Shown one piece after another: positions 1 to 62,540 of a DNA stretch of 64,000 nucleotides. A model generated the notes under the pieces. That model searched no databases and was not told the DNA's origin. It was given only the letters and a program-made list of their open reading frames with translations. The stretch is from Shigella phage JK42. Position 1 is the stretch's first letter; every line of letters starts with the position of its first letter. A program made the translations under genes and the position numbers. The stretch is taken from sequence record MK962756. One strand, 5' to 3'.

Positions 1-2214
1 TTATTTGGCCGCTTCCACGGCCTTCATGAATTTAACGATTTGAGCGACCTGTTCTTTTGAAAGAGTACCACGTCGTCCCATGTAGTCTGACACAATATGA
101 TAATTGGTTTCGAATTCAATAACCATTTTATCATCATTATCGTAAGCATTATCTTTAAGCTTATCGAAAATTTTAGCACACAATTCTAACTTCTTATTCA
201 GGTCTGTATTAGTAGCACCTGCGAATCGATTCCATCCCCAACGATTATTTACTGTTGAGAGTTTTGCAAAGTCTTTACTGATTTCTTTGTTCTTAGAGCT
301 AAAATACTTACTAAGGAAGTTAAGCTCTTCATTACGAGTAATATGATTCAAATAAGGCTGTGCTCTACGACTTGGTGATACATACTCATCATAATCCACT
401 TTATCGATTAGCGTAATATAGTCATTAATTGATTTTTCGAACAAGCATTCTACTTCACCAAGTTTACGAACTTTCTTAGCAATCTGTGGACGAACTACAG
501 TGAACTCTTTAATACCTGACAAATCAGCAATACGGGTCAAGAAATTGGAGTCATAGTTCAACCAACCTTTATCTGCGTCAAGACATTCAGCATTAGAACG
601 ATTACGAACTATAGCATAACCTTGGATTTCATCAGCTTCACTCGCTGGAATAAAGAGATCTTCTGATACCCAAACATCGTTTTCATTCTTAAAGAACCGA
701 TGAGCACTCGGGGATTTAGGACGAGGCCCATTAGAACGAGTCTTGACTTCAATCCATGGCTTAACGATTTGTAAAAGCTCTGAAGTCTTGTACATGTTAA
801 TGTTGTCGCCATCAAAGATAACTTTAAGACGTTCCAGAAGTTTCATTGCATCTTCGTCTGTAGGGTCAACGAATAGTACGCTTTTACCAAAACCGCGTGG
901 AACTTTACCGGTTAATTTAACCTCGTCTTTAGACATTTCAATTGAATTAAGAGCTCGCATTAATGGAACGCGTCCCTTAACGTCGTCAATAACAATTTCA
1001 ACGTTTTTAATGTTAATGCCAATCAGACTGTTAATTGAAATAGTTGTCGATGAGCTACCACTTTCACGAATACGACGAAGACGAGGGGATTCAACGATAT
1101 CGTATACGACACCAAGATTACACCACTCAGGCCCCATTTTAAAACGTTTGTACAACTCAGAATAAGTTAGTTGTTCTTTAGAGTATTTCAGTGATTCAAT
1201 ATTAGACCCAGCCTTTTCCATGTATTTACGAGCGGTATAACCAAGAGAATCAATTTCACGGAACACATGACGCGGGTATTTACAATCAATCCATTTCTTA
1301 GAATCTTCAGCGAACAATTTAGCATCGATTTCTGCAACGCGTTTATGGATATTTGCTACTGTACGTTTATCAAATGACAATGCTTCACGAGACGGGGCTA
1401 CATCTAGTTCACCCATAGGGAATTTAATATAAGCTGTAGTGCATCGCGTCATCATCCATGTTTGTTCTTTAATAACACTTCCGATTGGATATACAATACC
1501 ACCATAAACAGCCATGATATTACCACGTTCACCCCATGGAGCTTCCTTGGCCAAATATACATCGTCAAATTCAGGAAAGTATTTAATATCTTTAACACCA
1601 CGAACTTCTGCAATATCACCTAGAGGACGCATAACATATGCAATTTCGGATGCGAACTTTTCAAAATCTTCCGGGTTAACCGGTACAACTACTTCTACAC
1701 CCGTACGGTCATCAGGGCCCATCTTATCTACAAAGGTTGGCTTAATTTGTGGACCCGTGTCATCTTGGTAGATTACGTAACCACGAACTTCACCGTTGTG
1801 ATAAGACGTAAGGTTAAACGTATCGGTATATGCTAGTGGAGCTTTAGAGCCGAGTCCGAATCCACCAATGAAATCGTTACTCGATGTTTTAGTTGAAGCA
1901 AAATATGAGTTATAGATTCCTGGCTCTTCATCATTACCTCGAATGGTGAAATCGCTCATACCAGGACCAAAGTCTCGAACTACAAAACGTGGGTCTAAAC
2001 GACCTGGAGCCTGAACAATAAACTTATCAGTGCAACCATTAAGAATTTGTCCATCAATACAGTTTGTGATTAATTCACGTACACAAGCCAATTCTTTGTT
2101 TGTATAAAGGTCATTAGACAAAATCTTATAAACTTTGCTATTGCCTTGAATAGTGAATGCTGTGCTTTTACCACCAGAACCAATAATCGTTTCTTTAGCC
2201 GTTTCAATAATCAT
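1..2214 (-). CDS. rIIA: rIIA membrane-associated protein (GHKL-type ATPase-like N-terminus)
   Basis: 737-aa complete ORF with stop at 1..3; N-terminal sequence and length match remembered T4 rIIA (725 aa); first gene of the canonical T4 map. Confidence 0.85.
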   Translation of the reverse strand: MIIETAKETIIGSGGKSTAFTIQGNSKVYKILSNDLYTNKELACVRELITNCIDGQILNGCTDKFIVQAPGRLDPRFVVRDFGPGMSDFTIRGNDEEPGIYNSYFASTKTSSNDFIGGFGLGSKAPLAYTDTFNLTSYHNGEVRGYVIYQDDTGPQIKPTFVDKMGPDDRTGVEVVVPVNPEDFEKFASEIAYVMRPLGDIAEVRGVKDIKYFPEFDDVYLAKEAPWGERGNIMAVYGGIVYPIGSVIKEQTWMMTRCTTAYIKFPMGELDVAPSREALSFDKRTVANIHKRVAEIDAKLFAEDSKKWIDCKYPRHVFREIDSLGYTARKYMEKAGSNIESLKYSKEQLTYSELYKRFKMGPEWCNLGVVYDIVESPRLRRIRESGSSSTTISINSLIGINIKNVEIVIDDVKGRVPLMRALNSIEMSKDEVKLTGKVPRGFGKSVLFVDPTDEDAMKLLERLKVIFDGDNINMYKTSELLQIVKPWIEVKTRSNGPRPKSPSAHRFFKNENDVWVSEDLFIPASEADEIQGYAIVRNRSNAECLDADKGWLNYDSNFLTRIADLSGIKEFTVVRPQIAKKVRKLGEVECLFEKSINDYITLIDKVDYDEYVSPSRRAQPYLNHITRNEELNFLSKYFSSKNKEISKDFAKLSTVNNRWGWNRFAGATNTDLNKKLELCAKIFDKLKDNAYDNDDKMVIEFETNYHIVSDYMGRRGTLSKEQVAQIVKFMKAVEAAK

Positions 2215-2226
2215 ATTTTTCTCTCA

Positions 2227-2427
2227 TCACAAGTTACGTTTAAAAATTTCTGCCACTTCGAGAAGTTCTTCTTTAGTAGCTGTATCGGTTTGTATTTTAT
2301 ATCGAATTTCTTTAAAGCGTTCTTTAAAGGACTCTGCTGACTCGATATCAAAAAATCTTTGGATAAGCCGGAATTCCCGGAGCACTGCTTTATCAAAAAG
2401 TTCCAAGTCCACGTTATATGTTCTCAT
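2227..2427 (-). CDS. small hypothetical protein at the rIIA.1 position
   Basis: 66-aa ORF directly downstream of rIIA on the same strand; assigned by position only. Confidence 0.45.
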   Translation of the reverse strand: MRTYNVDLELFDKAVLREFRLIQRFFDIESAESFKERFKEIRYKIQTDTATKEELLEVAEIFKRNL

Positions 2428-2452
2428 AATATTCTCTTCAGTAGATTCCTAG

Positions 2453-2503
2453 GGCACTATTACTAAAGACCATATAATCTATCATCTTATGTGTAATAGT
2501 GCC
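2453..2503. repeat. 11-bp perfect inverted repeat (GGCACTATTAC ... GTAATAGTGCC) with 29-nt A/T-rich loop
   Basis: Read directly: arms at 2453-2463 and 2493-2503; lies between the glycosyltransferase stop and the rIIA.1-like start. Confidence 0.4.
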
Positions 2504-2519
2504 TCAGGCTATTCAGGAT

Positions 2520-3620
2520 TTACGCTGTGAAGATTTTATCCCACATCGCAACAACTGCATCTCGGTTATACTTCTTCCATACTGCTTCAGCACGTTTAAC
2601 TCGAGCTTCGTATGTGTCAGTGAATTCTAATACAGCTTTTGTGTAAAGCGCAACTACTTCTTTCTTAGGAGTAGATGAATCAATTTCTACACGCACAGTA
2701 TCTGGGTCGTATTCAAATGTCGCATGAGGATAATCCTTAAAAACTAACTGGATTACAGGGACACCTTTAGAGATGGCTTCAATAGAACTATTCTCTACCG
2801 TACCTGTGTCAGGACAAGTATTAATAAGTGCTTTAGCTGTTTTAAGACGTTCCATGATTTCACTGTGTGGAGCATCAATAATAACAGGATATTTAGCCGG
2901 TGGCGCCCATTTGCTTGGACAGTATCCTGCACCATTTTCGCCTAGTGCTTTAATCGCTTCAAGAGCAACATCAGTACGACGCATTTTAGTGTCATAACGT
3001 TGTGCACTAATAATCAGATCCGTCGCCGGAAGAACTTCTGGCTTTTCAGTCAAACAAATAACCGGATAATCTTCGGCTTCAAACAACGGATTTGCTCGCC
3101 AATAATCATAATCAATTTTGTCAGTCAGACCTGAAGTCATATAACAATATTTACGTTCAAATTCACGGAAGGCTTTAGTAGGAGCATAACTCTTACCACC
3201 ATTCTTATGAATTTGAATAGTCTGGTCCCAAATTTGAACAATGCCACGAGATACCGGTTCAAATGGTGTTGCCATAAAATTCTTATGAACTTTAGAGAGA
3301 CCTGCGTCTTTAATTGCCTGAACGGTTAGTTTAGTCGGTTCCATAGTAACAACAAAATCGTATTCATGAATGCCGGCTAGTTCAACAATCTTACGAGCCA
3401 TAGTATAACTCATACCTAGACTGAATTTAGTCAGATGACCAACAGGATGATGATTAACCTTCCAATCACCAAATGTGTCATTATCAAAGCCGATATAATC
3501 AATATCAGCACCGATGGACACAAGATATTTCAACACATTTAAATGTACTGCTTCAAGACCACCTTGTACACGTTCTGGGTTAAATGGGACTGCGCGAGAT
3601 GGGATAAACATAACTTTCAT
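2520..3620 (-). CDS. GT-B fold glycosyltransferase (GT4-like); candidate DNA hmC sugar transferase
   Basis: 366 aa; N-terminus MKVMFIPSRAVPFNPERVQGGLEAVHLNVLKYL and C-terminal ...TGTVENSSIEAISKGVPVI resemble retaining GT-B enzymes; inserted between rIIA.1 and gene 39 where T4 has gene 60/mobA. Confidence 0.6.
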   Translation of the reverse strand: MKVMFIPSRAVPFNPERVQGGLEAVHLNVLKYLVSIGADIDYIGFDNDTFGDWKVNHHPVGHLTKFSLGMSYTMARKIVELAGIHEYDFVVTMEPTKLTVQAIKDAGLSKVHKNFMATPFEPVSRGIVQIWDQTIQIHKNGGKSYAPTKAFREFERKYCYMTSGLTDKIDYDYWRANPLFEAEDYPVICLTEKPEVLPATDLIISAQRYDTKMRRTDVALEAIKALGENGAGYCPSKWAPPAKYPVIIDAPHSEIMERLKTAKALINTCPDTGTVENSSIEAISKGVPVIQLVFKDYPHATFEYDPDTVRVEIDSSTPKKEVVALYTKAVLEFTDTYEARVKRAEAVWKKYNRDAVVAMWDKIFTA

Positions 3621-7370: not shown

Positions 7371-7390
7371 ATTATTCTCCTCTGGTTGAT

Positions 7391-7426
7391 ATGGTTATAA
7401 TATCAAAACCAGAGGAGAAGTAAACT
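7391..7426 (-). promoter_or_regulatory. sigma70-type early promoter (GTTTAC -35; A/T -10)
   Basis: Plus strand shows ttataatatc ... gtaaac; minus strand reads GTTTAC, ~16-17 nt, TATTATAA; sits in the intergenic gap. Confidence 0.4.
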
Positions 7427-7429
7427 ACT

Positions 7430-7849
7430 TTATGCAAAAGATGCTTGGCTATATCCTTTGATTTGGAATTCAGGAACTACCATGAACTGTCCGGCGAAAA
7501 CGATGTTATAAAGCTTAACACCATCTTCAACCCATTGGTCTGAAATAAAACCAGCGACTTGATTCGTTGTCCATGGAGACCCATCAGTTGCGGCAGCAAT
7601 AGTAAATTCATGATCTTTTACAACTAAAACTGACCTGCACAGTTTCCATTTGAATGCTTTTTCTTCTGGTTCAATGAACTGACTTGAGACGTAACCAATG
7701 TTACCATTAACATCTCGAACTTTAACTTCGTTACGTCCAAAAACCGGATCACTCACAGAAAGAACTTCAACCAACTTCCCGGCAACTTTAGAGCGAGAAG
7801 CAACAGATACATATACGTAATCACCTGTAGAGAGATTTACAATATTCAT
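7430..7849 (-). CDS. hypothetical protein, tandem paralog A
   Basis: 139 aa; shares ASRSKxAGKLVEV, FKWxLC and GFISDQWVEDGxKLYNIVF with the adjacent ORF. Confidence 0.55.
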   Translation of the reverse strand: MNIVNLSTGDYVYVSVASRSKVAGKLVEVLSVSDPVFGRNEVKVRDVNGNIGYVSSQFIEPEEKAFKWKLCRSVLVVKDHEFTIAAATDGSPWTTNQVAGFISDQWVEDGVKLYNIVFAGQFMVVPEFQIKGYSQASFA

Positions 7850-8386: not shown

Positions 8387-9064
8387 TTATCGCTGTTTTA
8401 CACTTAACGGGTCAGGATTCTCAGGGACATCTTCAAGGCCAAGCGCATAACGCTGAGCATATTTTAACATCAAAATATCTTTAGCACAATCATGAATACT
8501 ATCATGGGCAACGAATCCTTTTAGCGTACCCATCGGTAATGGACACATACTTAATCCTCGTGTCAACGAGTAAGCTTCGATTGCCGTACGAATATCACGT
8601 TGAGCCCAGAATTTAACCGGTTCTAATTTATCAGTATCAATATCTGGTTCAAGAACACCTTCATCACGATAGAGGTCACGAATCAAATCGACCAAGATCG
8701 GGAAGTCAAAGCTCATACCACGGCACCACATCTGTGATTTCCATTGGTCAACTTTATTAGCTCGACAATAATCTAAAAAGATTTTAATGCCTTCAAGCGT
8801 AGTGACATCGTCTTCAGACGGAGCCAGGTTTTTACGCGCTTCTGCTGACTGTTCTTTCCACCATTTCATAGTGGATTTAGCGAAAACTCGCTTCCCTTTC
8901 TGAGAAGCTAAATTAAATTTAATTCGCTTACCTCGTTGAACAAGTTCTTCAAATGATTCAACAACTTCAGGGTCGGAATTATATGCAATAACCGCAAGGT
9001 CAATAACAGCCGCTTTTGATGTATTGCCGAATGTTTCAAAATCTATAATAACATCAGTGCTCAT
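8387..9064 (-). CDS. dexA: exonuclease A (DEDDh 3'-5' exonuclease)
   Basis: 225 aa; N-terminal ...IIDFETFGN... exonuclease motif; size and position after dda as in T4. Confidence 0.8.
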   Translation of the reverse strand: MSTDVIIDFETFGNTSKAAVIDLAVIAYNSDPEVVESFEELVQRGKRIKFNLASQKGKRVFAKSTMKWWKEQSAEARKNLAPSEDDVTTLEGIKIFLDYCRANKVDQWKSQMWCRGMSFDFPILVDLIRDLYRDEGVLEPDIDTDKLEPVKFWAQRDIRTAIEAYSLTRGLSMCPLPMGTLKGFVAHDSIHDCAKDILMLKYAQRYALGLEDVPENPDPLSVKQR

Positions 9065-25302: not shown

Positions 25303-25542
25303 TTATTTGAATTTCTTGGCAATGTTGATATAACGTAAAGCTTCAGCATCGATACTTCCAAGAACACTATGAAGAAATGCATCAGCGTAGTATTCCAATT
25401 GAACAGGTTCTTTAATCACTTTAGCCGCTTTAGTTTCAAACAGGCCCATCAGGGCCTTTTTAAGAATTTGTTCATTAGTGTTCAGTTTCATAGTCAAAAT
25501 CTCTTCATTAAGTTGGTGGTTAAAAGTTTTTCTAGAAATCAT
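25303..25542 (-). CDS. hypothetical small protein
   Basis: 79-aa ORF. Confidence 0.4.
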   Translation of the reverse strand: MISRKTFNHQLNEEILTMKLNTNEQILKKALMGLFETKAAKVIKEPVQLEYYADAFLHSVLGSIDAEALRYINIAKKFK

Positions 25543-26714
25543 TCCGGGTACCTCAAAGCGTCATCAGAGTTAGTTATATCAATAATAGATATAGAGTTTT
25601 CTGCTAACCCGTTTTTAGATAATTGACGTTTATAATATCTTTCACAATATGTACACGTCGTCCCGCAGATTTCATTAGCACAATCGAAATCTGGATGTCT
25701 GAACCACCTTTTTTCTAAAAAGCCATCTAACAAAGAGGTTTCAATATTTACTGTATGTGAAAACTCAGTTTCGTTTTCAAGAGTGAAAATAGTCTCTAAA
25801 GGCTTCCACAGTTCTAACAAATTACCTTCAAACTTTTCAGAAGCGTATGCTTCAAGAACTTTCAAAATGTAGTCTGTGCTACCTGTACGTCCTGAAACTT
25901 TGAATTGAGTGATACCAATATCATTATAAAGTTTCAAATCTTGAGGACGAACAAAACGAGTTCTCAGCCAGTTAAATGGGTCTGTATCACGAGCTTTAAT
26001 GCAGTGTTGCATTGGATATCCATTTAAGGATTTAGCATCATCAGCGGTAACATCAGTACTATGGAAAATATAGCAAGAGTCACGATAGCTACAATGTGTT
26101 GTATACCCTTTACCAGCATTAGAACAGAACTCATTTACAAGAACTTCAAATATTATATTGTTCTTATTGCAAAACTCTGCTGCACGCTTCAGGAAAGAAA
26201 CTGAACGGTTCTTATGAATTCCACAGCAGACCTTTTTGATATTATATTGGTCATGCAAGTATTTGATTTGAGTTACAGCATCGACATGTAGAATTGTTGA
26301 AACTTCAATCTCAATGTCTTTATTGACTTCACGAACAATTTCCATAACAACAGGGTTAGCGATAGTAATACGCCATACGCCTATTGACCAAAGATACTGA
26401 ACATAATCCTGAATAGCTTTCTTCTTCCACTCAACTAGTTCTCTTTTTGAACCAGGATTTATCGTGTTGAGTGTATAGTTAAAGCAAATACCTAATTCGT
26501 TACAACGTTTAACGTAATCTTCTAACATCTTTTTGTCAACGTCAGGAAGCCTAAAATCAGGTCTGGCTGCTACAAAAGCCATTTCTCTTGTAGAGCCGTA
26601 TACTTCGTTTATCAAGCTATTAGGATAAGTTTTATTGAGCTCTACGATTTTATCAAGAAGAGCTAAATCAAAATTCGTTCCGATTTTAAAAGTATTCATT
26701 TTTTTGCATCTCAC
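25539..26714 (-). CDS. Cys-rich protein with C-terminal CX4CX3CX2C cluster (possible Fe-S enzyme)
   Basis: 391 aa; ...FCSNAGKGYTTHCSYRDSCYIFH... and ...DFDCANEICGTTCTYCERYY... ; the CGTTCTYC segment fits the CX3CX2C pattern with an aromatic residue before the last Cys. Confidence 0.45.
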   Translation of the reverse strand: MRCKKMNTFKIGTNFDLALLDKIVELNKTYPNSLINEVYGSTREMAFVAARPDFRLPDVDKKMLEDYVKRCNELGICFNYTLNTINPGSKRELVEWKKKAIQDYVQYLWSIGVWRITIANPVVMEIVREVNKDIEIEVSTILHVDAVTQIKYLHDQYNIKKVCCGIHKNRSVSFLKRAAEFCNKNNIIFEVLVNEFCSNAGKGYTTHCSYRDSCYIFHSTDVTADDAKSLNGYPMQHCIKARDTDPFNWLRTRFVRPQDLKLYNDIGITQFKVSGRTGSTDYILKVLEAYASEKFEGNLLELWKPLETIFTLENETEFSHTVNIETSLLDGFLEKRWFRHPDFDCANEICGTTCTYCERYYKRQLSKNGLAENSISIIDITNSDDALRYPE

Positions 26715-26755
26715 GTTAATTGATGCGATGGTTTTTGCAGGTCTTACTTAAATTA

Positions 26756-27157
26756 TTATAGATTTGGTTTATATGATTTAAATGTTTCGAATTCGCCTTT
26801 ATTCATAAGAGCTTTGAATTCATCAGGACGCATAGCTTTGTCGTCGATAATCCAATCATATACTGGTTTATGTGTTAGCAAATTATGGTACTTCAAACCA
26901 ATGTTTTCCAAGTTCTGAATCAGACTTGGGAGAATGTCAATTGCTATACGACCAGGACCTACTGACTTCATACCACGAGCAGTGTAAAGCGTTATGGTAT
27001 GCCCTGCATCATACAGGGCATTAATGGCAGACACCATTTCGACGTCTGGTTTGAAGTTCACGTAATCACGATTGTTATTCCATTCCGTGATGCAATCATC
27101 GACATCAAAACAAAGATTAAGCATGTTTTCTACACGGTGCATTAGATTCGTTCCCAT
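26756..27157 (-). CDS. HAD-superfamily phosphatase-like protein
   Basis: 133 aa; motif I-like FDVDDCIT, later T, K and IIDDK acidic motif. Confidence 0.5.
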   Translation of the reverse strand: MGTNLMHRVENMLNLCFDVDDCITEWNNNRDYVNFKPDVEMVSAINALYDAGHTITLYTARGMKSVGPGRIAIDILPSLIQNLENIGLKYHNLLTHKPVYDWIIDDKAMRPDEFKALMNKGEFETFKSYKPNL

Positions 27158-28827
27158 TGATGAGTGATATCGCCACCGATTGGACGATAGGAAACACCAG
27201 TTTCTTTATCAGTTAGTACCCATTTACCAGGATTTTTTGTAATCAGAGTAGCCGTTACAGGTTCTGCTACGTCATAACTAATAGAGCCGTCCTGAAGTAC
27301 ACGGCCCATGTTACGTAATTGCTTAGTCAGAAGTTCCATACCTTTATAATATGCGGCTACCGCTTTAAGTGGATTATTCTTGAAATAACCACCTAATGCA
27401 ATCCAGATAATTGCCACTGCCAAATGATGATACTCGTTAAACGAACTCATCTTTCCATATTTGTAAACTAATGGATTGATGTTAATAGTCACATTACAAG
27501 TTGTTTCATCAATAGTAAACTGCCCCCAGGTCGGATTAGCATTGAATTCATCATAACCTGAAACAGCATAAAGCACTTTAGCTTCATCATACAATTTTGG
27601 CCCGTAAATCTTGGTTTCGCCAAAATATCCACGAGGGTCGATAAACTTGACTTCGCCGTTATCAGTAATCATAGTATTACTGAAGTTCGGGTCACCATGA
27701 ATAACAGAGTACTGTCCCTGAGAACGGTTATGATAACGAATAAGGTGTTCTAAAGCTTGTTTCAGCATTGGCTTCAGACGTCCAATCTTAGTGTAGTTCA
27801 CATGTGTGATTTTACCAAATGAATCAATCAATGGTTGAATGCTTTCACAACGATCAATAACTTTCGTATAGAATTCTTTAGTGAAATCACGACGAACAGT
27901 TTCAGGACTTACAAAATAAGTGTCTGTGCTGAATTTCAGTGCATCTAAAATTGCATCAATAATTTGTGGACGAGCAAGACTTGATTTTGATTTAATATAT
28001 TCAAATGCCGGCTTACCTTTAATGCGTTCCATTTCAAAGTTATTTTCATTAACAGAAACTAACTGAGGAACTGAATCTGATTTCACTTTCAAATACCACG
28101 AAATCTCATCTTTCTGAAGAGCTCGACCATGTTCGGTTAATGCGAATTTAGTTACAGTTTCTTCGCCAATTTCAACTGCATTAAAACTACGATTAAGTTC
28201 ACGAACTTCATGAGCCTTTTCAAGTTTAGGCATATCACCTAAATCAATTATATTCATAAGCTCTGATTTATTGAATGCGCTGCCGTAAAGGAATTCTACG
28301 AAATCACGTCCTTTGCAGTATTCATGAATTTCCTCATCGGTAGAACCCATATAGAATTCCCAGTCTTTGAACTGATAAATTCCTACAACATTACCACCTG
28401 TTGAACCTACGTTAGTGATATTTTCACCGTCGAAATTATATCGACATTCGTCACCCTTAACATAGATTGCGTTAACATTCCAAGACCATGAACCAAAATC
28501 AGGAATAATATCACACCAGTTAACAATTACATTATGGCCGTCTAAATCTTTGTGTAATTTAGCAAGAGCATAAGCAGAACCATACGCTTCATCAACTGTA
28601 CGAATAGTCACATTGAACCCTTCTTGCTCACAATAAGCTCGAACAGTTTCAGCAAATTTTGAATGAACTACTACAATAATTTCATCTGCGCCAAGGTCAG
28701 AATAAATTGTATACAAATTGCTCAGAATAGTGTCTTGTTTATAATTAACAAGCACCTTAGGAATATGATGCGTTATTGGATACAAACGAGTTGCCAGTCC
28801 AGCACCAAGAATAACAGCTTTTTTCAT
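27142..28827 (-). CDS. bifunctional sugar-1-phosphate nucleotidyltransferase (N-term) / APH-fold anomeric sugar kinase (C-term)
   Basis: 561 aa; N-term MKKAVILGAGLATRLYPITHHIPKVLV resembles RmlA/MurU-type NTases; C-term ...VIHGDPNFSNTMITDNGEVKFIDPRGYFG is the HGDxxxxN...D kinase motif of APH/choline-kinase/AmgK-type kinases. Confidence 0.7.
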   Translation of the reverse strand: MKKAVILGAGLATRLYPITHHIPKVLVNYKQDTILSNLYTIYSDLGADEIIVVVHSKFAETVRAYCEQEGFNVTIRTVDEAYGSAYALAKLHKDLDGHNVIVNWCDIIPDFGSWSWNVNAIYVKGDECRYNFDGENITNVGSTGGNVVGIYQFKDWEFYMGSTDEEIHEYCKGRDFVEFLYGSAFNKSELMNIIDLGDMPKLEKAHEVRELNRSFNAVEIGEETVTKFALTEHGRALQKDEISWYLKVKSDSVPQLVSVNENNFEMERIKGKPAFEYIKSKSSLARPQIIDAILDALKFSTDTYFVSPETVRRDFTKEFYTKVIDRCESIQPLIDSFGKITHVNYTKIGRLKPMLKQALEHLIRYHNRSQGQYSVIHGDPNFSNTMITDNGEVKFIDPRGYFGETKIYGPKLYDEAKVLYAVSGYDEFNANPTWGQFTIDETTCNVTININPLVYKYGKMSSFNEYHHLAVAIIWIALGGYFKNNPLKAVAAYYKGMELLTKQLRNMGRVLQDGSISYDVAEPVTATLITKNPGKWVLTDKETGVSYRPIGGDITHQWERI

Positions 28828-28868
28828 GTTGAAGTCCTCATTGGTAAGTAGGAGTATTGTACACTATT

Positions 28869-29012
28869 CTAGTTAAAGCATTCATACTTTGCTTGTAGTC
28901 CAATCATAATCCATCCAATTACAAGTGTTGGAATCATTACCGGAGCCGTTAAGCTCCAGTAGATAGTCATGACAAGCATCAATAGTAAAAGTCCTATTGT
29001 TATTGCTTTCAT
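28869..29012 (-). CDS. small predicted membrane protein
   Basis: Hand translation: MKAITIGLLLLMLVMTIYWSLTAPVMIPTLVIGWIMIGLQAKYECFN (47 aa); start overlaps the SIS gene stop (ATGA); below the ORF-track cutoff. Confidence 0.3.
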   Translation of the reverse strand: MKAITIGLLLLMLVMTIYWSLTAPVMIPTLVIGWIMIGLQAKYECFN

Positions 29013-29644
29013 TGTTCGCCTCGTAACATGGCACCTAGTGCACCGCCTGGATGGAACTTAAGGAAATCATTAGAGGTAAATCCACGTTCAGACGAAAGGT
29101 TGATAGCAAACGTATCGATAAGTGCTAACAACAATGTAGTGGACATCGTCGGAGCTAAAGAGTTCTCGTCAACTTCTACCGCGATACCGGTGCAGAACGT
29201 ATAATCAAAAAGAGCTTCGTATTCTTGTGGAATGTCAGGGTTACAATGTAACAGAATCTGTTTAACCTGAGGACGAATCATACGAAGATGTTTAGCAACA
29301 CCTATCATTTCTTCAGTTTTACCAGAACGACTAATATGAATCAACACGTCATTAGGCGCAATAAATCCTGCGTCACCATGAGAATAATGCCCGGTGTTCA
29401 AATACATGCTAGGAATACCTAGTGAAGCAAAAGTCTCGGAAGCTTTAGTTGCGATATTAGCATTCTTACCAACACCTGTAATAATTACCCGGCTTTCATA
29501 ATTACTAAGTCCAGGGCGTCGAAGAGTTTCTAGAATAGCATTATAACGAGCAGGGTTTTGACTAATTACTTTAGCCATAGTGGCAAGAGATGAAGCTTGT
29601 TTTACGATTGCGTCAATAGCGATAGTAATAGGAGTAGTTTTCAT
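29009..29644 (-). CDS. SIS-domain sugar-phosphate isomerase, KdsD/GutQ-like (arabinose-5-phosphate isomerase) without CBS domains
   Basis: 211 aa; VIITGVGKNANIATKASETFASLGIPSMYLNTGHYSHGDAGFIAPNDVLIHISRSGKTEE aligns with the remembered KdsD SIS core (GMGKSGHIGKK...HGDLGMV...ISNSGES). Confidence 0.7.
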   Translation of the reverse strand: MKTTPITIAIDAIVKQASSLATMAKVISQNPARYNAILETLRRPGLSNYESRVIITGVGKNANIATKASETFASLGIPSMYLNTGHYSHGDAGFIAPNDVLIHISRSGKTEEMIGVAKHLRMIRPQVKQILLHCNPDIPQEYEALFDYTFCTGIAVEVDENSLAPTMSTTLLLALIDTFAINLSSERGFTSNDFLKFHPGGALGAMLRGEQ

Positions 29645-29684: not shown

Positions 29685-30114
29685 TCAAAAATCAAACATA
29701 TCGAACAGAGATGCTTTCTTCTCGTAATCGAGTTTAGCTGCTGATGTGAATCCTTCAAGTGGTTTAATAAATGTCTTCTCAAGGAGAACAGTGTAGTCCA
29801 TCCAATGAAGTACATCGTCTTTAATTAAATCTGTGATTTCAGTACCAGAAGGCCATGCGATACATTTATCACCGAATGGGTTTCCTTCACGTAAAGGCAG
29901 AACATATACTTTTTCACCTTCTACAACTTGTGGTGCATCAATATTACCTTTGATAGCTCGGTTATATGTCAGAATTCCACGTATATGGAACGGGCATTTA
30001 GGACCCGGGAATCCACCTACGTCGTATTTAGCAATGTTATTCGCAGAAGATACCGACGCGATGCTAATATAATTCAATTGACGGAATTCTTTTTCAAACT
30101 CTTTAAAATATTCT
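29685..30114 (-). pseudogene. detached 3' segment of gene 43 encoding the polymerase C-terminal region and clamp-binding tail
   Basis: In the polymerase frame this segment encodes ...EGFTSAAKLDYEKKASLFDMFDF, the expected gp43 C-terminus; separated from the main ORF by the duplication. Confidence 0.6.
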
Positions 30115-30502
30115 ACTTCATTGGATGGCTGATGTGAATCCTTCAAGTGGTTTAATAAATGTCTTCTCAAGGAGAACAGTGTAGTCCATCCAATGAAGTA
30201 CATCGTCTTTAATTAAATCTGTGATTTCAGTACCAGAAGGCCATGCGATACATTTATCACCGAATGGGTTTCCTTCACGTAAAGGCAGAACATATACTTT
30301 TTCACCTTCTACAACTTGTGGTGCATCAATATTACCTTTGATAGCTCGGTTATATGTCAGAATTCCACGAATATGGAACGGGCATTTAGGACCCGGGAAT
30401 CCACCTACGTCGTATTTAGCAATGTTATTCGCAGAAGATACCGACGCGATGCTAATATAATTCAATTGACGGAATTCTTTTTCAAACTCTTTAAAATATT
30501 CT
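29740..30502. repeat. 375-bp direct repeat, two copies (29740-30114 and 30128-30502), joined by a 13-bp spacer
   Basis: Read directly: copies identical except one mismatch (t/a near 29986/30374); the spacer acttcattggatg is the reverse complement of catccaatgaagt found inside the repeat; period 388 bp is not a multiple of 3. Confidence 0.9.
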
Positions 30503-32784
30503 TGTAATGATTCTTCACCTTCTTGAAGCATACGACGAATACATTCTTTAAGAGCTTTCTGTACTGCTTTAGGGGTCGAAGATTTCTGAGTCTCTAGACC
30601 CATGATTTTGAGTTTAGGCTCAGCGTATCTGGTTCCTTCCATATCCCACACGTTTAATGCATAACGTTTCTTACCAGTCCAGAATCCACCAATACCTTTA
30701 GAACCGAGCGGAGGACCAGCGATAGCTTCTCGGTCCATGAACATTAAGTGTTGTTTATTGTTCATGTATTCACACATTTCACGGAAACCTTTATCAATAG
30801 CTGGTTCCATACGTTCACGAGCGAACTTATCTAAGAAGTCTACCCAATGGTTGGTATCACGGAATTTAGATTCACCAACCTTATCAATAATTTTATCTGC
30901 AGATACGTAAATGGAGTCTGTATCACCATATAGAACGAAAGCTTCACCTTCTGTACCACAAACTTCATTCAGATATTCATTAACTTTACGTTCAATCCAC
31001 TGTAAAGCCATTTGTCCGAATGTTGTGATTGCAGTAGCATTACGCAAATCATAATAACGGAACCAAACGTTGCCAAGTGCACCATAAAGTGAGTTGATAA
31101 GCAATTTACGGTTAATTTGTGCGGTCATACCTGCAACTTCAGTACGTTGAGCTCTAAACAACATTTCATTAAGAGATTTAGCAGACAACTTTTTAATCTT
31201 TTCTTTAATCTCATCACTGAAGTCGAAACGATAATCAACATCTAATGGTTCGTCAACAGAAAGATTAGGATTATGCAATGCCTCTTTAATTATTTCGCCG
31301 TTACGTTGAGCCGCAAGCATGTAACCTTTATGTTCTTTACGTTGATTAAAGACCTTAGTGATTTCAGTTGGAACTACACCATCACGGTCTTTATAATACA
31401 TCATGCCGTTAGGAGAGCAACTGTACACATCTGAAGGACGTTCAGCGATTGCGTTAATATAATCATGCAGTGGAGCTACTTTAAACGTTCCTGCTATTGT
31501 TTCCGGGCTAATATTCACTTGGCGAATAATACTTGGATACAGAGATGTAAGGTCGAAACTCATTACATATTTGTATCGATTTGGAATAGGTTCCTTAACA
31601 AAAGCGCCAGGATAAGGTTGAACCGGGTGAGAACGACCTTGTGGAATCACCTTGTTTTGTTCTTTAAGGCTATTAAAAATAATAGCATCCCAAGTTTTAA
31701 TTGGACTGAACACAGATTGAATCTGAATTTTAGCATAATAACCCATGTCCAAGCTCAAGTTGATGAACTGACGCTTAGAATCAATTTGCAATACACGATA
31801 CACGTCGATAATGTTATAAGAAATATATCGTTGGTGATTGCTTTCACGAAGCTTAGAAATAGGGCCGTCATATTTCAGTTTACCAACGTTCAATTCAAAT
31901 TCTGAAATGTAATCCAGAGAATACGACGGTTGATTGGTAAAAGAGAATTTTTTGTAAAGGTCAATGTAATCAAGAACAGAGATACCGAACAATGTAATGA
32001 TTTCACGAGAACCATACATGTTTTCGATAACTTTAACACGAGTTTTACGATGTGGCGATAAACGTTTCGCAGTAGATTCGCCAAAAATATTCTTGATTCG
32101 GTTATACACATATGGAATATCAAATGACTCAACGTTCCATCCAGTCAAAATGACAGGAGTTTTCTGTTGCCAGAAGTTGAGATATTCCATCAACAATTCT
32201 TTTTCGTTATCGAACGGCATATAAATGATTTTATCGATAATTTCAGATGGAACTTCATCACCGCCTTGTTCTTGAAGCTTAGCAGCGATTTCAATAGACC
32301 ATTCTTCTACATTACCATATGGAGAATTCAATAGATCAAATACGTAGAACCTGTCGTCAATTGAGTCATAATGGGTGATAGCATCAATCGGATGTTTTGC
32401 TTGTGACGGCTCAGGGAACCCATCCGGAGATGTTACTTCGATGTCGAAGTTAGCCACACGAATTTTTGTATGGTCGTATTTGATTTCATAGTTATAAGTG
32501 TCAGACAAATACGCCAATTTGAAATCGTCCATGCCAAGTGCTTCAAGTCCGATATCTTCCATGCGTTTAATCCATTGGGAGGCATCACGCATATTAGCGA
32601 ACAGCTTACGAGTACACGGCTTACCGTAGATATCGAAATATTTCGTAGCCTGACTTTCTGGACAATGAGCAAACAGTGATGGTTTATATTCTACTTCACG
32701 AGTACGTTCACGGCCATTAGAATCGATGTAACGTTCAAAAATTGAATCACCAATCTGTTCAACCGTTAAGTAAAATTCTTTCAT
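30118..32784 (-). CDS. 43: DNA polymerase (family B), C-terminally truncated by the duplication frameshift
   Basis: 888 aa; MKEFYLTVEQIGDSIFERYIDSNGRERTREVEYKP... matches remembered T4/RB69 gp43; the ORF ends ...EGFTSAIQ instead of the clamp-binding tail. Confidence 0.9.
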   Translation of the reverse strand: MKEFYLTVEQIGDSIFERYIDSNGRERTREVEYKPSLFAHCPESQATKYFDIYGKPCTRKLFANMRDASQWIKRMEDIGLEALGMDDFKLAYLSDTYNYEIKYDHTKIRVANFDIEVTSPDGFPEPSQAKHPIDAITHYDSIDDRFYVFDLLNSPYGNVEEWSIEIAAKLQEQGGDEVPSEIIDKIIYMPFDNEKELLMEYLNFWQQKTPVILTGWNVESFDIPYVYNRIKNIFGESTAKRLSPHRKTRVKVIENMYGSREIITLFGISVLDYIDLYKKFSFTNQPSYSLDYISEFELNVGKLKYDGPISKLRESNHQRYISYNIIDVYRVLQIDSKRQFINLSLDMGYYAKIQIQSVFSPIKTWDAIIFNSLKEQNKVIPQGRSHPVQPYPGAFVKEPIPNRYKYVMSFDLTSLYPSIIRQVNISPETIAGTFKVAPLHDYINAIAERPSDVYSCSPNGMMYYKDRDGVVPTEITKVFNQRKEHKGYMLAAQRNGEIIKEALHNPNLSVDEPLDVDYRFDFSDEIKEKIKKLSAKSLNEMLFRAQRTEVAGMTAQINRKLLINSLYGALGNVWFRYYDLRNATAITTFGQMALQWIERKVNEYLNEVCGTEGEAFVLYGDTDSIYVSADKIIDKVGESKFRDTNHWVDFLDKFARERMEPAIDKGFREMCEYMNNKQHLMFMDREAIAGPPLGSKGIGGFWTGKKRYALNVWDMEGTRYAEPKLKIMGLETQKSSTPKAVQKALKECIRRMLQEGEESLQEYFKEFEKEFRQLNYISIASVSSANNIAKYDVGGFPGPKCPFHIRGILTYNRAIKGNIDAPQVVEGEKVYVLPLREGNPFGDKCIAWPSGTEITDLIKDDVLHWMDYTVLLEKTFIKPLEGFTSAIQ

Positions 32785-50376: not shown

Positions 50377-51326
50377 TATAACACCTCAATGGCATTTCGT
50401 AAACCATCCGCTTTCGCATTCAGAGCTTTTAACGATTTAGTTTGTTCTGCAATCTGGGCTTCGACTTCTTTCAGACGAGATTTGAGATATTCGCGTTCTT
50501 CTCTTAAGTTATCAACTTTTTCTGCTTTAGGCTCTTTAATAGGCTTAGGCTTATACTCGTTAGGGTTCTTCAACTTAATTTGAATGCGAGAACTGTATAA
50601 CATTGAACCATTATCTTCGGTTTCATCATACATTTCTACCACGTCCATGATTCTTAACATCATGCGAAGTTTATAAGACAGCGAACGAATGGTTTTATTG
50701 TGCTTCTTAATTTCTTCAGCTTTCATGGTGCCGAGATTACGTGAGTAATAATAAGGAACCTGAATATCAATTGATAATGATGCGGTACCATTACCGGTTG
50801 GTTTGAACACTGCAGTAACCCAATCTTTAGCATGAACTGTATTTGTACGATCATCGCCGCCTGTGAATAATTTACGAGAATGTTTAAAAAGCATATTCAC
50901 TTGGTTATTGAATTCACAAGCAAATTTATCAGCAAATTTAGTTTCAGGAATGGTAGTTAACCAATCAGCCAAATGAGTCTTTTTAACATCATTAACAATA
51001 GTGAATTCAACCAAATCGGTTTTAGATGTCACAGATTTAATAAAGCTCGGCTTCATAAAGTTTTTAATGTTATCGCGAGCTACAGTAGAAGATAATAAAC
51101 GAGAACGTTTGAACCATTGAAGCAGTGTCCCTAATGAATGAGAATATGCATTTTGAGTATCTTTACAGATATGATTTTCTTGGCCTATGTATGTACCAAA
51201 ATCTCGAAGAATACCACTTACTACATCTCGGTGTGGAACATCAAATCCTAGTACACCAGAAGCACGTTGGGCATGAACGTTAGCGATAAGGCCTGCAAAG
51301 TATTCAATGTAATGTGAACGTGTCAT
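50376..51326 (-). CDS. hypothetical protein with C-terminal coiled coil
   Basis: 316 aa; C-terminus ...REEREYLKSRLKEVEAQIAEQTKSLKALNAKADGLRNAIEVL; driven by repeated promoter copy 2. Confidence 0.5.
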   Translation of the reverse strand: MTRSHYIEYFAGLIANVHAQRASGVLGFDVPHRDVVSGILRDFGTYIGQENHICKDTQNAYSHSLGTLLQWFKRSRLLSSTVARDNIKNFMKPSFIKSVTSKTDLVEFTIVNDVKKTHLADWLTTIPETKFADKFACEFNNQVNMLFKHSRKLFTGGDDRTNTVHAKDWVTAVFKPTGNGTASLSIDIQVPYYYSRNLGTMKAEEIKKHNKTIRSLSYKLRMMLRIMDVVEMYDETEDNGSMLYSSRIQIKLKNPNEYKPKPIKEPKAEKVDNLREEREYLKSRLKEVEAQIAEQTKSLKALNAKADGLRNAIEVL

Positions 51327-62263: not shown

Positions 62264-62324
62264 TTTGATTTCTCCTCTAGTTGACAGGTCTATAGTAACA
62301 CAACTAGAGGAGAAGTAAACTACT

Positions 62325-62540
62325 TTATTGATAAAATGGAGTTAAAGCCCAAGATTCTTTAGATACCATATTGGCGAAATGCCTCATCTCTTCGATTTGG
62401 CGTCGACGCTGGTCAGCATAGTCTTCTTCGCCTTCTTCCTTACAATCTTCAAGGTCTTCTTCAAGATACTTTAAGTATTCACTACAAATTTTGTTGACCT
62501 TTTCTTGAAAGTCCAATAACCCAGTAATAGTAGAAGCCAT
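62325..62540 (-). CDS. hypothetical small acidic protein
   Basis: 71-aa ORF. Confidence 0.4.
   Translation of the reverse strand: MASTITGLLDFQEKVNKICSEYLKYLEEDLEDCKEEGEEDYADQRRRQIEEMRHFANMVSKESWALTPFYQ

What the first reader, a model, noticed from the sequence alone, without database searches (positions are those of the whole stretch)
29685..30502. 375-bp near-perfect tandem duplication frameshifts gene 43 and detaches the clamp-binding tail
Two copies (29740-30114 and 30128-30502) are identical apart from one mismatch and are joined by a 13-bp spacer that is an inverted copy of a sequence inside the repeat. The 388-bp period breaks the frame: the polymerase ORF ends ...EGFTSAIQ (888 aa), while the native C-terminus (...AAKLDYEKKASLFDMFDF, the sliding-clamp interaction tail) is left on a separate downstream fragment. 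Removing one copy plus the spacer would restore a ~903-aa polymerase. This is either an assembly or collapse artefact or a real rearrangement with consequences for processive replication.
Basis: seen in the sequence. Interest (0 to 1): 0.7.

Follow-up and report, generated by a model that had tools for sequence, protein, structure and literature searches.

The report
Assembly-join duplication in phage polymerase gene
The 375-base tandem duplication that appears to cut the clamp-binding tail off this phage's DNA polymerase is really in the deposited sequence, but it is almost certainly a genome-finishing error (overlapping contig ends joined without trimming), not biology.

Summary
Window 29740-30114 and 30128-30502 are 375-nt direct copies with one mismatch. 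A 13-nt spacer that is an inverted copy of repeat-internal sequence separates them. The 388-nt period frameshifts gene 43 into an 888-aa polymerase and a 172-aa fragment that carries the native tail.

The window is bases 1-64000 of Shigella phage JK42 (MK962756), an RB69-like Mosigvirus. It was sequenced with MiSeq 2x250 reads, assembled with MIRA and edited by hand.

Several results point to an artefact:
- None of about 154 close relatives has the duplication or its junction.
- Removing 388 nt restores a 903-aa protein that differs from RB69 gp43 at 3 residues.
- The one mismatch is an allele found in no other record.
- JK42 makes the largest plaques reported for the myoviruses of that collection, although the tail is required for clamp binding.
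- The two sibling genomes from the same study each carry their own private tandem duplication elsewhere. JK45 has 503 nt beside rIIA.1. JK36 has 845 nt that split the major capsid gene.
- The RB69 reference has no such duplication.
- All three sibling records start at the same base, the rIIA stop codon, so they were rotated.

Best explanation: overlapping contig ends of a circularly permuted genome were joined without trimming when the contig was rotated. This is not a real feature, and interest is low.

The parts
29740..30114 (.). Copy 1 of the 375-nt repeat. On the minus strand it encodes gp43 residues 762-886 again, then continues into the native tail. It is the putative 3' end of the original contig and carries the private base T at 29982.
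30115..30127 (.). 13-nt spacer ACTTCATTGGATG, the reverse complement of 29799-29811 / 30187-30199. Most likely the inverted tail of a fold-back chimeric read at the contig end (inferred).
   Evidence: (I3, I4)
30128..30502 (.). Copy 2 of the repeat, identical to the single copy in APCEc01 and JK45. It is the putative 5' start of the original contig.
30118..32784 (-). Truncated gene 43 ORF as deposited (888 aa, QEG06168.1). It has 886 native residues plus IQ, with the family B exonuclease and polymerase domains.
29685..30203 (-). 172-aa ORF as deposited (QEG06167.1, 'hypothetical protein'). Its first 30 residues are out-of-frame and spacer-derived. Residues 31-172 equal RB69 gp43 762-903, including the clamp-binding tail.
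29982..29982 (.). The single mismatch between the copies: T here, A at 30370. It is synonymous (Ile ATA/ATT). No record in the phage collection matched the copy-1 (T) sequence exactly. It lies 132 nt from the join, within one 250-nt read.
29798..29812 (.). Source sequence of the inverted spacer (repeated at 30186-30200).
   Evidence: I3, I4
1..2214 (-). rIIA. The record starts on the first base of its stop codon, exactly as in JK36, JK45 and the RB69 reference. This shows the assembled contig was cut and re-joined to the conventional start.

Best explanation
The duplication is a genome-finishing artefact in the deposited JK42 sequence, not a feature of the phage.

JK42 is a T4-type phage. By established knowledge its DNA is circularly permuted, so reads assemble as a circle. 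The assembler (MIRA, 2x250 MiSeq reads) breaks that circle at an arbitrary point and emits a linear contig whose two ends overlap. Here the overlap is 375 nt.

The authors then rotated the contig so that it begins at the rIIA stop codon, as in RB69. To do this they pasted the old 3' end onto the old 5' start without trimming the overlap. The terminal redundancy thereby became an internal tandem duplication inside gene 43.

The ragged contig end explains the two imperfections:
- a private single-base error 132 nt from the join;
- a 13-nt inverted tail, as produced by a snap-back chimeric read. In that model the plus-strand 3' end at 30114 primes on 29812 and copies down to 29799.

The true genome is most likely 168,306 - 388 = 167,918 bp, with one intact 903-aa gp43.

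Shown: the anatomy, the privacy of the duplication, the rotation, and the recurrence in sibling genomes. Inferred: that the join coincides with the contig ends, and that a chimeric read produced the spacer.
For: 1. Source and method. Exact protein look-up identifies Shigella phage JK42. The paper reports MiSeq 2x250 reads, MIRA 4.0.2, and genomes 'edited using Artemis'. It does not mention circularisation, a duplication or the polymerase.

2. Rotation. The window, JK45 and JK36 start at the identical base, the rIIA stop codon, as does the RB69 reference.

3. Privacy. A 1501-nt query across the region matches 154 close relatives over only 1110-1113 nt, i.e. a single copy. A 116-nt junction query matches all 154 only as two pieces, without the spacer. 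The junction is absent from viral contigs and metagenome contigs.

4. Restoration. Removing 388 nt gives a 903-aa ORF that differs from RB69 gp43 at 3 residues. The tail fragment is identical to residues 762-903 of solved RB69 polymerase structures.

5. Mismatch. Copy 2 equals the relatives' sequence. The copy-1 allele is matched exactly by none of 65 records.

6. Batch effect. JK45 has a private, perfect 503-nt tandem duplication at 2412-3417.

7. JK36 has a private 845-nt tandem duplication at 108578-110267 that splits gene 23 into two 'major capsid protein' CDS. It has one mismatch, again private, 160 nt from the join.

8. JK36 has exactly one such repeat in its whole genome. The RB69 reference has none.

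9. Phenotype. JK42 gives 3-4 mm plaques, the largest reported for the myoviruses of the collection, and JK36 has normal T4-like heads. Yet the gp43 C-terminus is essential for clamp binding (citing Berdis 1996), and gp23 is the capsid shell.

10. Quality elsewhere. No other gene in the window is truncated relative to JK36.

11. General precedent. Assemblers break circular templates at random and leave a repeat at both contig ends.
Against: No reads are available, so the junction cannot be checked directly. The spacer is not random junk. It is a templated inverted copy with 1-nt microhomology on each side, and this is also the signature of a genuine replication template switch. The one mismatch is synonymous, as a tolerated mutation would be; a third-position error has roughly a one-in-four chance of that. 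MIRA's behaviour on this data set and the manual rotation step are inferred from the shared start coordinate and the methods text, not documented by the authors.
Confidence: 0.92

Rival explanations
1. A real, fixed tandem duplication in JK42. It would arise from two replication template switches: a strand switch that copies 13-15 nt of the opposite strand, then a jump 375 nt back. The phage would then have a tail-less polymerase plus a separately encoded thumb-and-tail fragment.
For: The spacer is a templated inverted copy with 1-nt microhomologies at both junctions. The mismatch is synonymous. An ATG-initiated ORF reads through the junction into the correct frame of copy 1. Naturally split gp43 (43A/43B) works in Aeromonas phages 25 and 44RR.
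Against: Loss of the C-terminus abolishes clamp binding, yet JK42 makes the largest plaques of the collection's myoviruses. The duplication is absent from 154 relatives and from two contig collections. By established knowledge, T4-type recombination would rapidly collapse an unselected 375-nt tandem repeat. The same kind of private duplication occurs in both sibling records, once destroying gene 23 in a phage with normal heads. The natural 43A/43B splits partition the protein without overlap, unlike this case.
Confidence: 0.03
2. A real but minority variant, for example defective genomes complemented by wild type in a high-titre lysate, that the assembler built into the consensus.
For: The templated spacer looks biological. 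The private T allele could mark a subpopulation.
Against: It would need the same coincidence three times in one batch, at unrelated loci. A minority junction would not normally win a consensus. There is no independent sighting of the junction.
Confidence: 0.03
3. An artefact of another kind: an internal MIRA misassembly. Chimeric reads, or a polymorphic base treated as a repeat marker, would cause it, rather than the circularisation join.
For: MIRA separates reads that differ at a consistent base into different repeat copies (own knowledge). There is exactly one such base here, and a chimeric-looking spacer.
Against: JK36 has exactly one duplication in its whole genome. The clean head-to-tail joins in JK45 and JK36 and the proven rotation of all three records fit a single join per genome better than random internal misassemblies do.
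Confidence: 0.05

Closest known systems
Direct terminal repeats left by assemblers on contigs of circular or circularly permuted genomes (as used by CheckV to call closed genomes)
   Same: There are two near-identical copies of an arbitrary stretch of genome, produced because the assembler breaks a circular read graph at a random point. The repeat is private to one record, and its size is of the order of one to a few read lengths.
   Different: Here the repeat is not at the ends of the record. It was carried into the interior by rotating the contig to the rIIA start. It also has a 13-nt inverted spacer and one base error at the join.
RB69 gp43, family B replicative DNA polymerase with a C-terminal sliding-clamp-binding tail
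   Same: After collapse the gene encodes 903 aa that differ from RB69 gp43 at 3 residues. The family B exonuclease and polymerase domains are present. The tail ...KKASLFDMFDF is identical to solved RB69 structures.
   Different: As deposited, the reading frame is broken after residue 886 and the tail lies on a second ORF.
Naturally split gene 43 (43A/43B) of Aeromonas phages 25 and 44RR
   Same: The polymerase is encoded as two ORFs.
   Different: Those splits partition the protein without overlap. The two genes are separated by an untranslated segment or a homing endonuclease gene, and the products co-purify as an active enzyme. Here the two ORFs overlap by 125 duplicated residues, are separated by 13 nt, and the arrangement is private to one record.
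Template-switch tandem duplications with short inverted templated insertions (FoSTeS/MMBIR-type junctions; own knowledge)
   Same: The junction carries an inverted copy of nearby sequence with 1-nt microhomologies.
   Different: There is no independent evidence that the junction exists in DNA. A snap-back chimeric read produces the same sequence.

Membership tests
Finishing artefact: untrimmed contig-end overlap internalised by rotation | Two adjacent, near-identical direct copies of otherwise unique sequence | tested here: met
   375 nt, 374/375 identical, period 388
Finishing artefact: untrimmed contig-end overlap internalised by rotation | Duplication and junction absent from all close relatives | tested here: met
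   154 records have a single copy and none has the junction. There were 0 hits in viral and metagenome contigs.
Finishing artefact: untrimmed contig-end overlap internalised by rotation | The record was rotated after assembly, so that a join of the contig ends must exist somewhere inside it | tested here: met
   The window, JK36, JK45 and RB69 all begin at the same base of the rIIA stop codon. The genomes were 'edited using Artemis'.
Finishing artefact: untrimmed contig-end overlap internalised by rotation | The same defect recurs at unrelated loci in genomes from the same pipeline, but not in an independent control | tested here: met
   JK45 has 503 nt and JK36 has 845 nt, each private. RB69 has none.
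Finishing artefact: untrimmed contig-end overlap internalised by rotation | Predicted gene damage contradicts the phenotype | tested here: met
   JK42 gives 3-4 mm plaques despite a tail-less polymerase. JK36 has normal heads despite a split gp23.
Finishing artefact: untrimmed contig-end overlap internalised by rotation | No reads span the junction; half depth over each copy when reads are mapped to the record | not testable with these tools
   No reads are held. The proteins occur only in the NCBI record, on 1 contig.
RB69-type gp43 family B DNA polymerase | Exonuclease and polymerase domains, and near identity to RB69 gp43 | tested here: met
   PF03104 and PF00136 are present. There are 3 differences in 903 aa after collapse.
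RB69-type gp43 family B DNA polymerase | C-terminal clamp-binding tail contiguous with the polymerase | tested here: not met
   As deposited, the ORF ends at ...EGFTSAIQ and the tail lies on ORF 29685-30203. The feature is met once 388 nt are removed.
Natural split gene 43 (43A/43B) | Non-overlapping partition of the protein, with an intervening untranslated segment or endonuclease gene, shared by related phages | tested here: not met
   The ORFs overlap by 125 duplicated residues, the spacer is 13 nt, and the arrangement is private to JK42.
Real template-switch tandem duplication | Templated inverted insertion with microhomology at the junction | tested here: inconclusive
   The insertion is present, but a chimeric read gives the same sequence.
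Real template-switch tandem duplication | The junction is physically present in phage DNA | not testable with these tools
   This needs PCR or reads.

The most novel reading that the evidence does not exclude
The duplication is physically present in JK42. It would be a two-step replication template switch that created a tandem duplication with a templated inverted insert. The phage would replicate with a polymerase lacking its clamp-binding tail, helped in trans by a separately translated thumb-and-tail fragment or by wild-type genomes in the population.
Probability: 0.04. Interest if true: 0.6.

Novelty: not a real feature. Interest (0 to 1): 0.08.

Why it matters
Biologically it does not matter, because the phage almost certainly has an ordinary intact RB69-type polymerase.

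It matters for data quality. Three public records from one study carry artefactual tandem duplications: JK42 MK962756, JK36 MK962754, and JK45 MK962757, which is also RefSeq NC_054940.1. These duplications:
- break or pad genes (gp43, gp23, and a spurious ORF beside rIIA.1);
- inflate genome lengths by 388, 845 and 503 bp;
- seed protein databases with a truncated 'DNA polymerase', a 'hypothetical protein' and two half 'major capsid proteins'.

Anyone using these records for phylogeny, pangenomes or phage-therapy dossiers should collapse the duplications.

The case also gives a reusable diagnostic. The signs are a private, near-perfect tandem repeat a few hundred bases long, in a rotated phage genome, with any errors clustered next to the join.

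Tried and rejected
- MK962756 itself is not in the phage collection, so only the 64-kb window of JK42 could be examined. 'One duplication per genome' was verified only for JK36.
- Junction searches in viral contigs and metagenome contigs found nothing.
- The primary paper on the gp43 C-terminus (Berdis 1996, PMC24004) is not held. I relied on a review that cites it.
- A 2026 preprint listed as mentioning JK42 has no JK42 in the held text.
- I rejected a functional split polymerase like 43A/43B, because the fragments overlap and the arrangement is private.
- I rejected the spacer as adaptor or random junk, because it is an exact inverted copy of repeat-internal sequence.
- I rejected general poor sequence quality, because no other gene in the window is truncated relative to JK36.
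- I did not scan genome contigs (bacterial genomes, unlikely to hold this lytic phage). I also did not check the T4-like siblings JK23, JK38 and CM8, or JK32, CM1, JK55 and JK16.

Full report
**The observation**

- Window 29740-30114 and 30128-30502 are 375-nt direct copies. They differ only at 29982 (T) versus 30370 (A).
- Tandem Repeats Finder reports period 388, 2.0 copies and score 1519. It is the only long tandem repeat in the 64-kb window.
- The 13-nt spacer at 30115-30127, ACTTCATTGGATG, is the reverse complement of 29799-29811 and 30187-30199. The match is 15 nt if the flanking T and G are included (I3/I4).
- The spacer sequence occurs nowhere else in the window. About 6e-6 chance matches are expected within the repeat, so the spacer is templated, not random.
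- On the minus strand, ORF 30118-32784 encodes 888 aa ending ...EGFTSAIQ.
- ORF 29685-30203 encodes 172 aa. Its first 30 residues are out-of-frame and spacer-derived. The rest is the native C-terminus...AAKLDYEKKASLFDMFDF.
- The repeat covers gp43 residues 761-886, and 388 mod 3 = 1.
- Deleting one copy plus the spacer gives a 903-aa ORF.

**What the window is**

An exact-sequence look-up finds both ORFs in GenBank as QEG06168.1 ('DNA polymerase', 888 aa) and QEG06167.1 ('hypothetical protein', 172 aa). Both belong to Shigella phage JK42 and occur on a single 168,306-bp contig.

The describing paper (PMC6832132) gives accession MK962756. It reports Illumina MiSeq 2x250 reads, assembly with MIRA v4.0.2, and genomes 'visualized and edited using Artemis'. 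It mentions no circularisation step, no duplication and nothing about the polymerase.

The window starts at the same base as the sibling genomes JK45 and JK36 and the RB69 reference. That base is the first of the rIIA stop codon. The window is therefore JK42 1-64000, and the assembled contig was cut and re-joined to the conventional start.

The collapsed polymerase differs from RB69 gp43 at 3 of 903 residues. It has the family B exonuclease and polymerase domains. The tail fragment is identical to residues 762-903 of solved RB69 polymerase structures.

**Is the duplication seen anywhere else?**

No.
- A 1501-nt query across the region matches 154 close relatives (95-99.5% identity) over only 1110-1113 nt of each record, i.e. 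a single copy.
- A 116-nt query centred on the junction matches the same 154 records only as two pieces that omit the spacer.
- The junction is absent from IMG/VR viral contigs and from JGI metagenome contigs.
- Copy 2 is identical to the single copy of APCEc01 and JK45.
- The copy-1 allele, T at 29982, is matched exactly by none of 65 records.
- No other gene in the window is truncated relative to JK36, so the consensus is otherwise clean.

**The decisive evidence: a batch effect**

The two other RB69-like genomes of the same study each carry one private, near-perfect tandem duplication at an unrelated locus.

| Record | Duplication | Position in record | Effect |
|---|---|---|---|
| JK42 (MK962756) | 375 nt + 13-nt spacer, 1 mismatch | 29740-30502 | Splits gene 43 |
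| JK45 (MK962757 = RefSeq NC_054940.1) | 503 nt, perfect | 2412-2914 / 2915-3417 | Spurious CDS JK45_00003 |
| JK36 (MK962754) | period 845 nt, 1 mismatch | 108578-109422 / 109423-110267 | Gene 23 annotated as two overlapping 'major capsid protein' CDS |
| RB69 reference (control) | none | - | Only two short dispersed repeats, 65-71 nt at 92-93% |

- For JK45, 152 other records span 998 nt of the 1501-nt query, so its duplication is private.
- For JK36, other records span 1256 nt of the 2101-nt query. RB69 has a single 1569-nt gene 23.
- In JK36 the single mismatch, C in the left copy, is found in no other record.
- The JK36 mismatch lies 160 nt from the join. The JK42 mismatch lies 132 nt from the join. 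Both are within one 250-nt read.
- JK36's whole genome has exactly one such repeat.

**Phenotype contradicts the deposited genes**

The gp43 C-terminus is essential for binding the sliding clamp, although not for polymerisation itself (PMC4488733, citing Berdis et al. 1996). Yet JK42 forms 3-4 mm plaques, the largest reported for the myoviruses of the collection, and infects 38% of the test strains.

JK36, whose record splits the major capsid protein, has normal T4-like heads of 112 x 82 nm and 2-3 mm plaques.

**Mechanism**

T4-type genomes are circularly permuted (established knowledge), so reads assemble as a circle. Assemblers break such circles at a random point and leave the same sequence at both contig ends (PMC8116208 and PMC5418689).

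Rotating the contig to the rIIA start pastes the old 3' end onto the old 5' start. If the overlap is not trimmed, it becomes an internal tandem duplication. This step is inferred.

One join per genome, arbitrary position, a size of 1.5 to 3.4 read lengths and errors hugging the join all fit this model.

The 13-nt spacer fits a snap-back chimeric read at the ragged contig end. A plus-strand 3' end at 30114 would prime on 29812, with 1 nt of microhomology, and copy down to 29799. The opposite assignment, junk at the contig start, does not fit an intramolecular fold-back. This is my own reasoning from the coordinates.

The true JK42 genome is probably 167,918 bp.

**Rivals**

A genuine template-switch duplication would leave the same junction sequence, and natural split gp43 genes do exist (43A/43B in Aeromonas phages 25 and 44RR). 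That reading has several problems:
- Those natural splits do not overlap and are not private to one record.
- A tail-less polymerase is at odds with vigorous growth.
- By established knowledge, T4-type recombination would collapse an unselected 375-nt repeat.
- The coincidence of three private duplications in one batch is not credible.

I give about 0.03 each to a real fixed duplication and to a real minority variant, and about 0.05 to a different kind of misassembly.

**What led nowhere**
- MK962756 is not in the phage collection.
- The Berdis paper is not held.
- A 2026 preprint had no JK42 in its held text.
- The contig-collection scans were negative.

**Verdict**

This is not a real biological feature. 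Interest is low, apart from the curation value of flagging three public records, one of them in RefSeq, that carry artefactual duplications.

Noticed in passing
L002 (JK45, MK962757 / RefSeq NC_054940.1) 2412-2914 and 2915-3417: A perfect 503-nt tandem duplication beside rIIA.1, private to JK45. It creates the spurious CDS JK45_00003 (2520-2930) and explains the roughly 500-nt coordinate offset to JK42 and JK36.
   Followed up: yes
L005 10578-12267 (JK36, MK962754 record 108578-110267): An 845-nt tandem duplication inside gene 23 with one private mismatch (His/Asp codon). The major capsid protein is annotated as two overlapping CDS, JK36_00181 and JK36_00182, although JK36 virions have normal heads.
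   Followed up: yes
L002 header (JK45 record taxonomy): JK45 is filed under Tequatrovirus ('Tequatrovirus jaykay'). Yet it is about 99% identical to Mosigvirus genomes (APCEc01, mar005P1, JK36) in every region compared, and its authors call it RB69-like. This is probably a taxonomic misassignment.
   Followed up: no
window 25539-29644 (minus strand): An insert next to gene 43. It holds a SIS-type arabinose-5-phosphate isomerase (29009-29644), a 561-aa nucleotidyltransferase/kinase-like ORF (27142-28827), a 133-aa ORF and a 391-aa U32-like ORF. From my own knowledge this is the RB69-type sugar (arabinosyl-hmC) DNA-modification cluster. The 561-aa ORF is a single ORF here and in JK36, JK45 and APCEc01, but is annotated as two overlapping CDS (RB69ORF052c/053c) in the RB69 reference.
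   Followed up: no
protein P0007 (Escherichia phage OLB35, AYR03964.1): Another short gp43 annotation (606 aa) in the same 90% cluster of otherwise 903-aa polymerases. It may be another broken record.
   Followed up: no
window 7375-7433 and 62270-62328: A dispersed 60-nt direct repeat at 87% identity. Comparable dispersed pairs occur in JK36 (8896-8968 / 51098-51167) and RB69 (8869-8939 / 50944-51011). They may be shared regulatory elements.
   Followed up: no
L002 46291-47061 (JK45): An I-TevII-like homing endonuclease gene splits nrdD in JK45. nrdD is a single CDS in JK36 and RB69, and no nrdD length discrepancy was flagged in the window.
   Followed up: no
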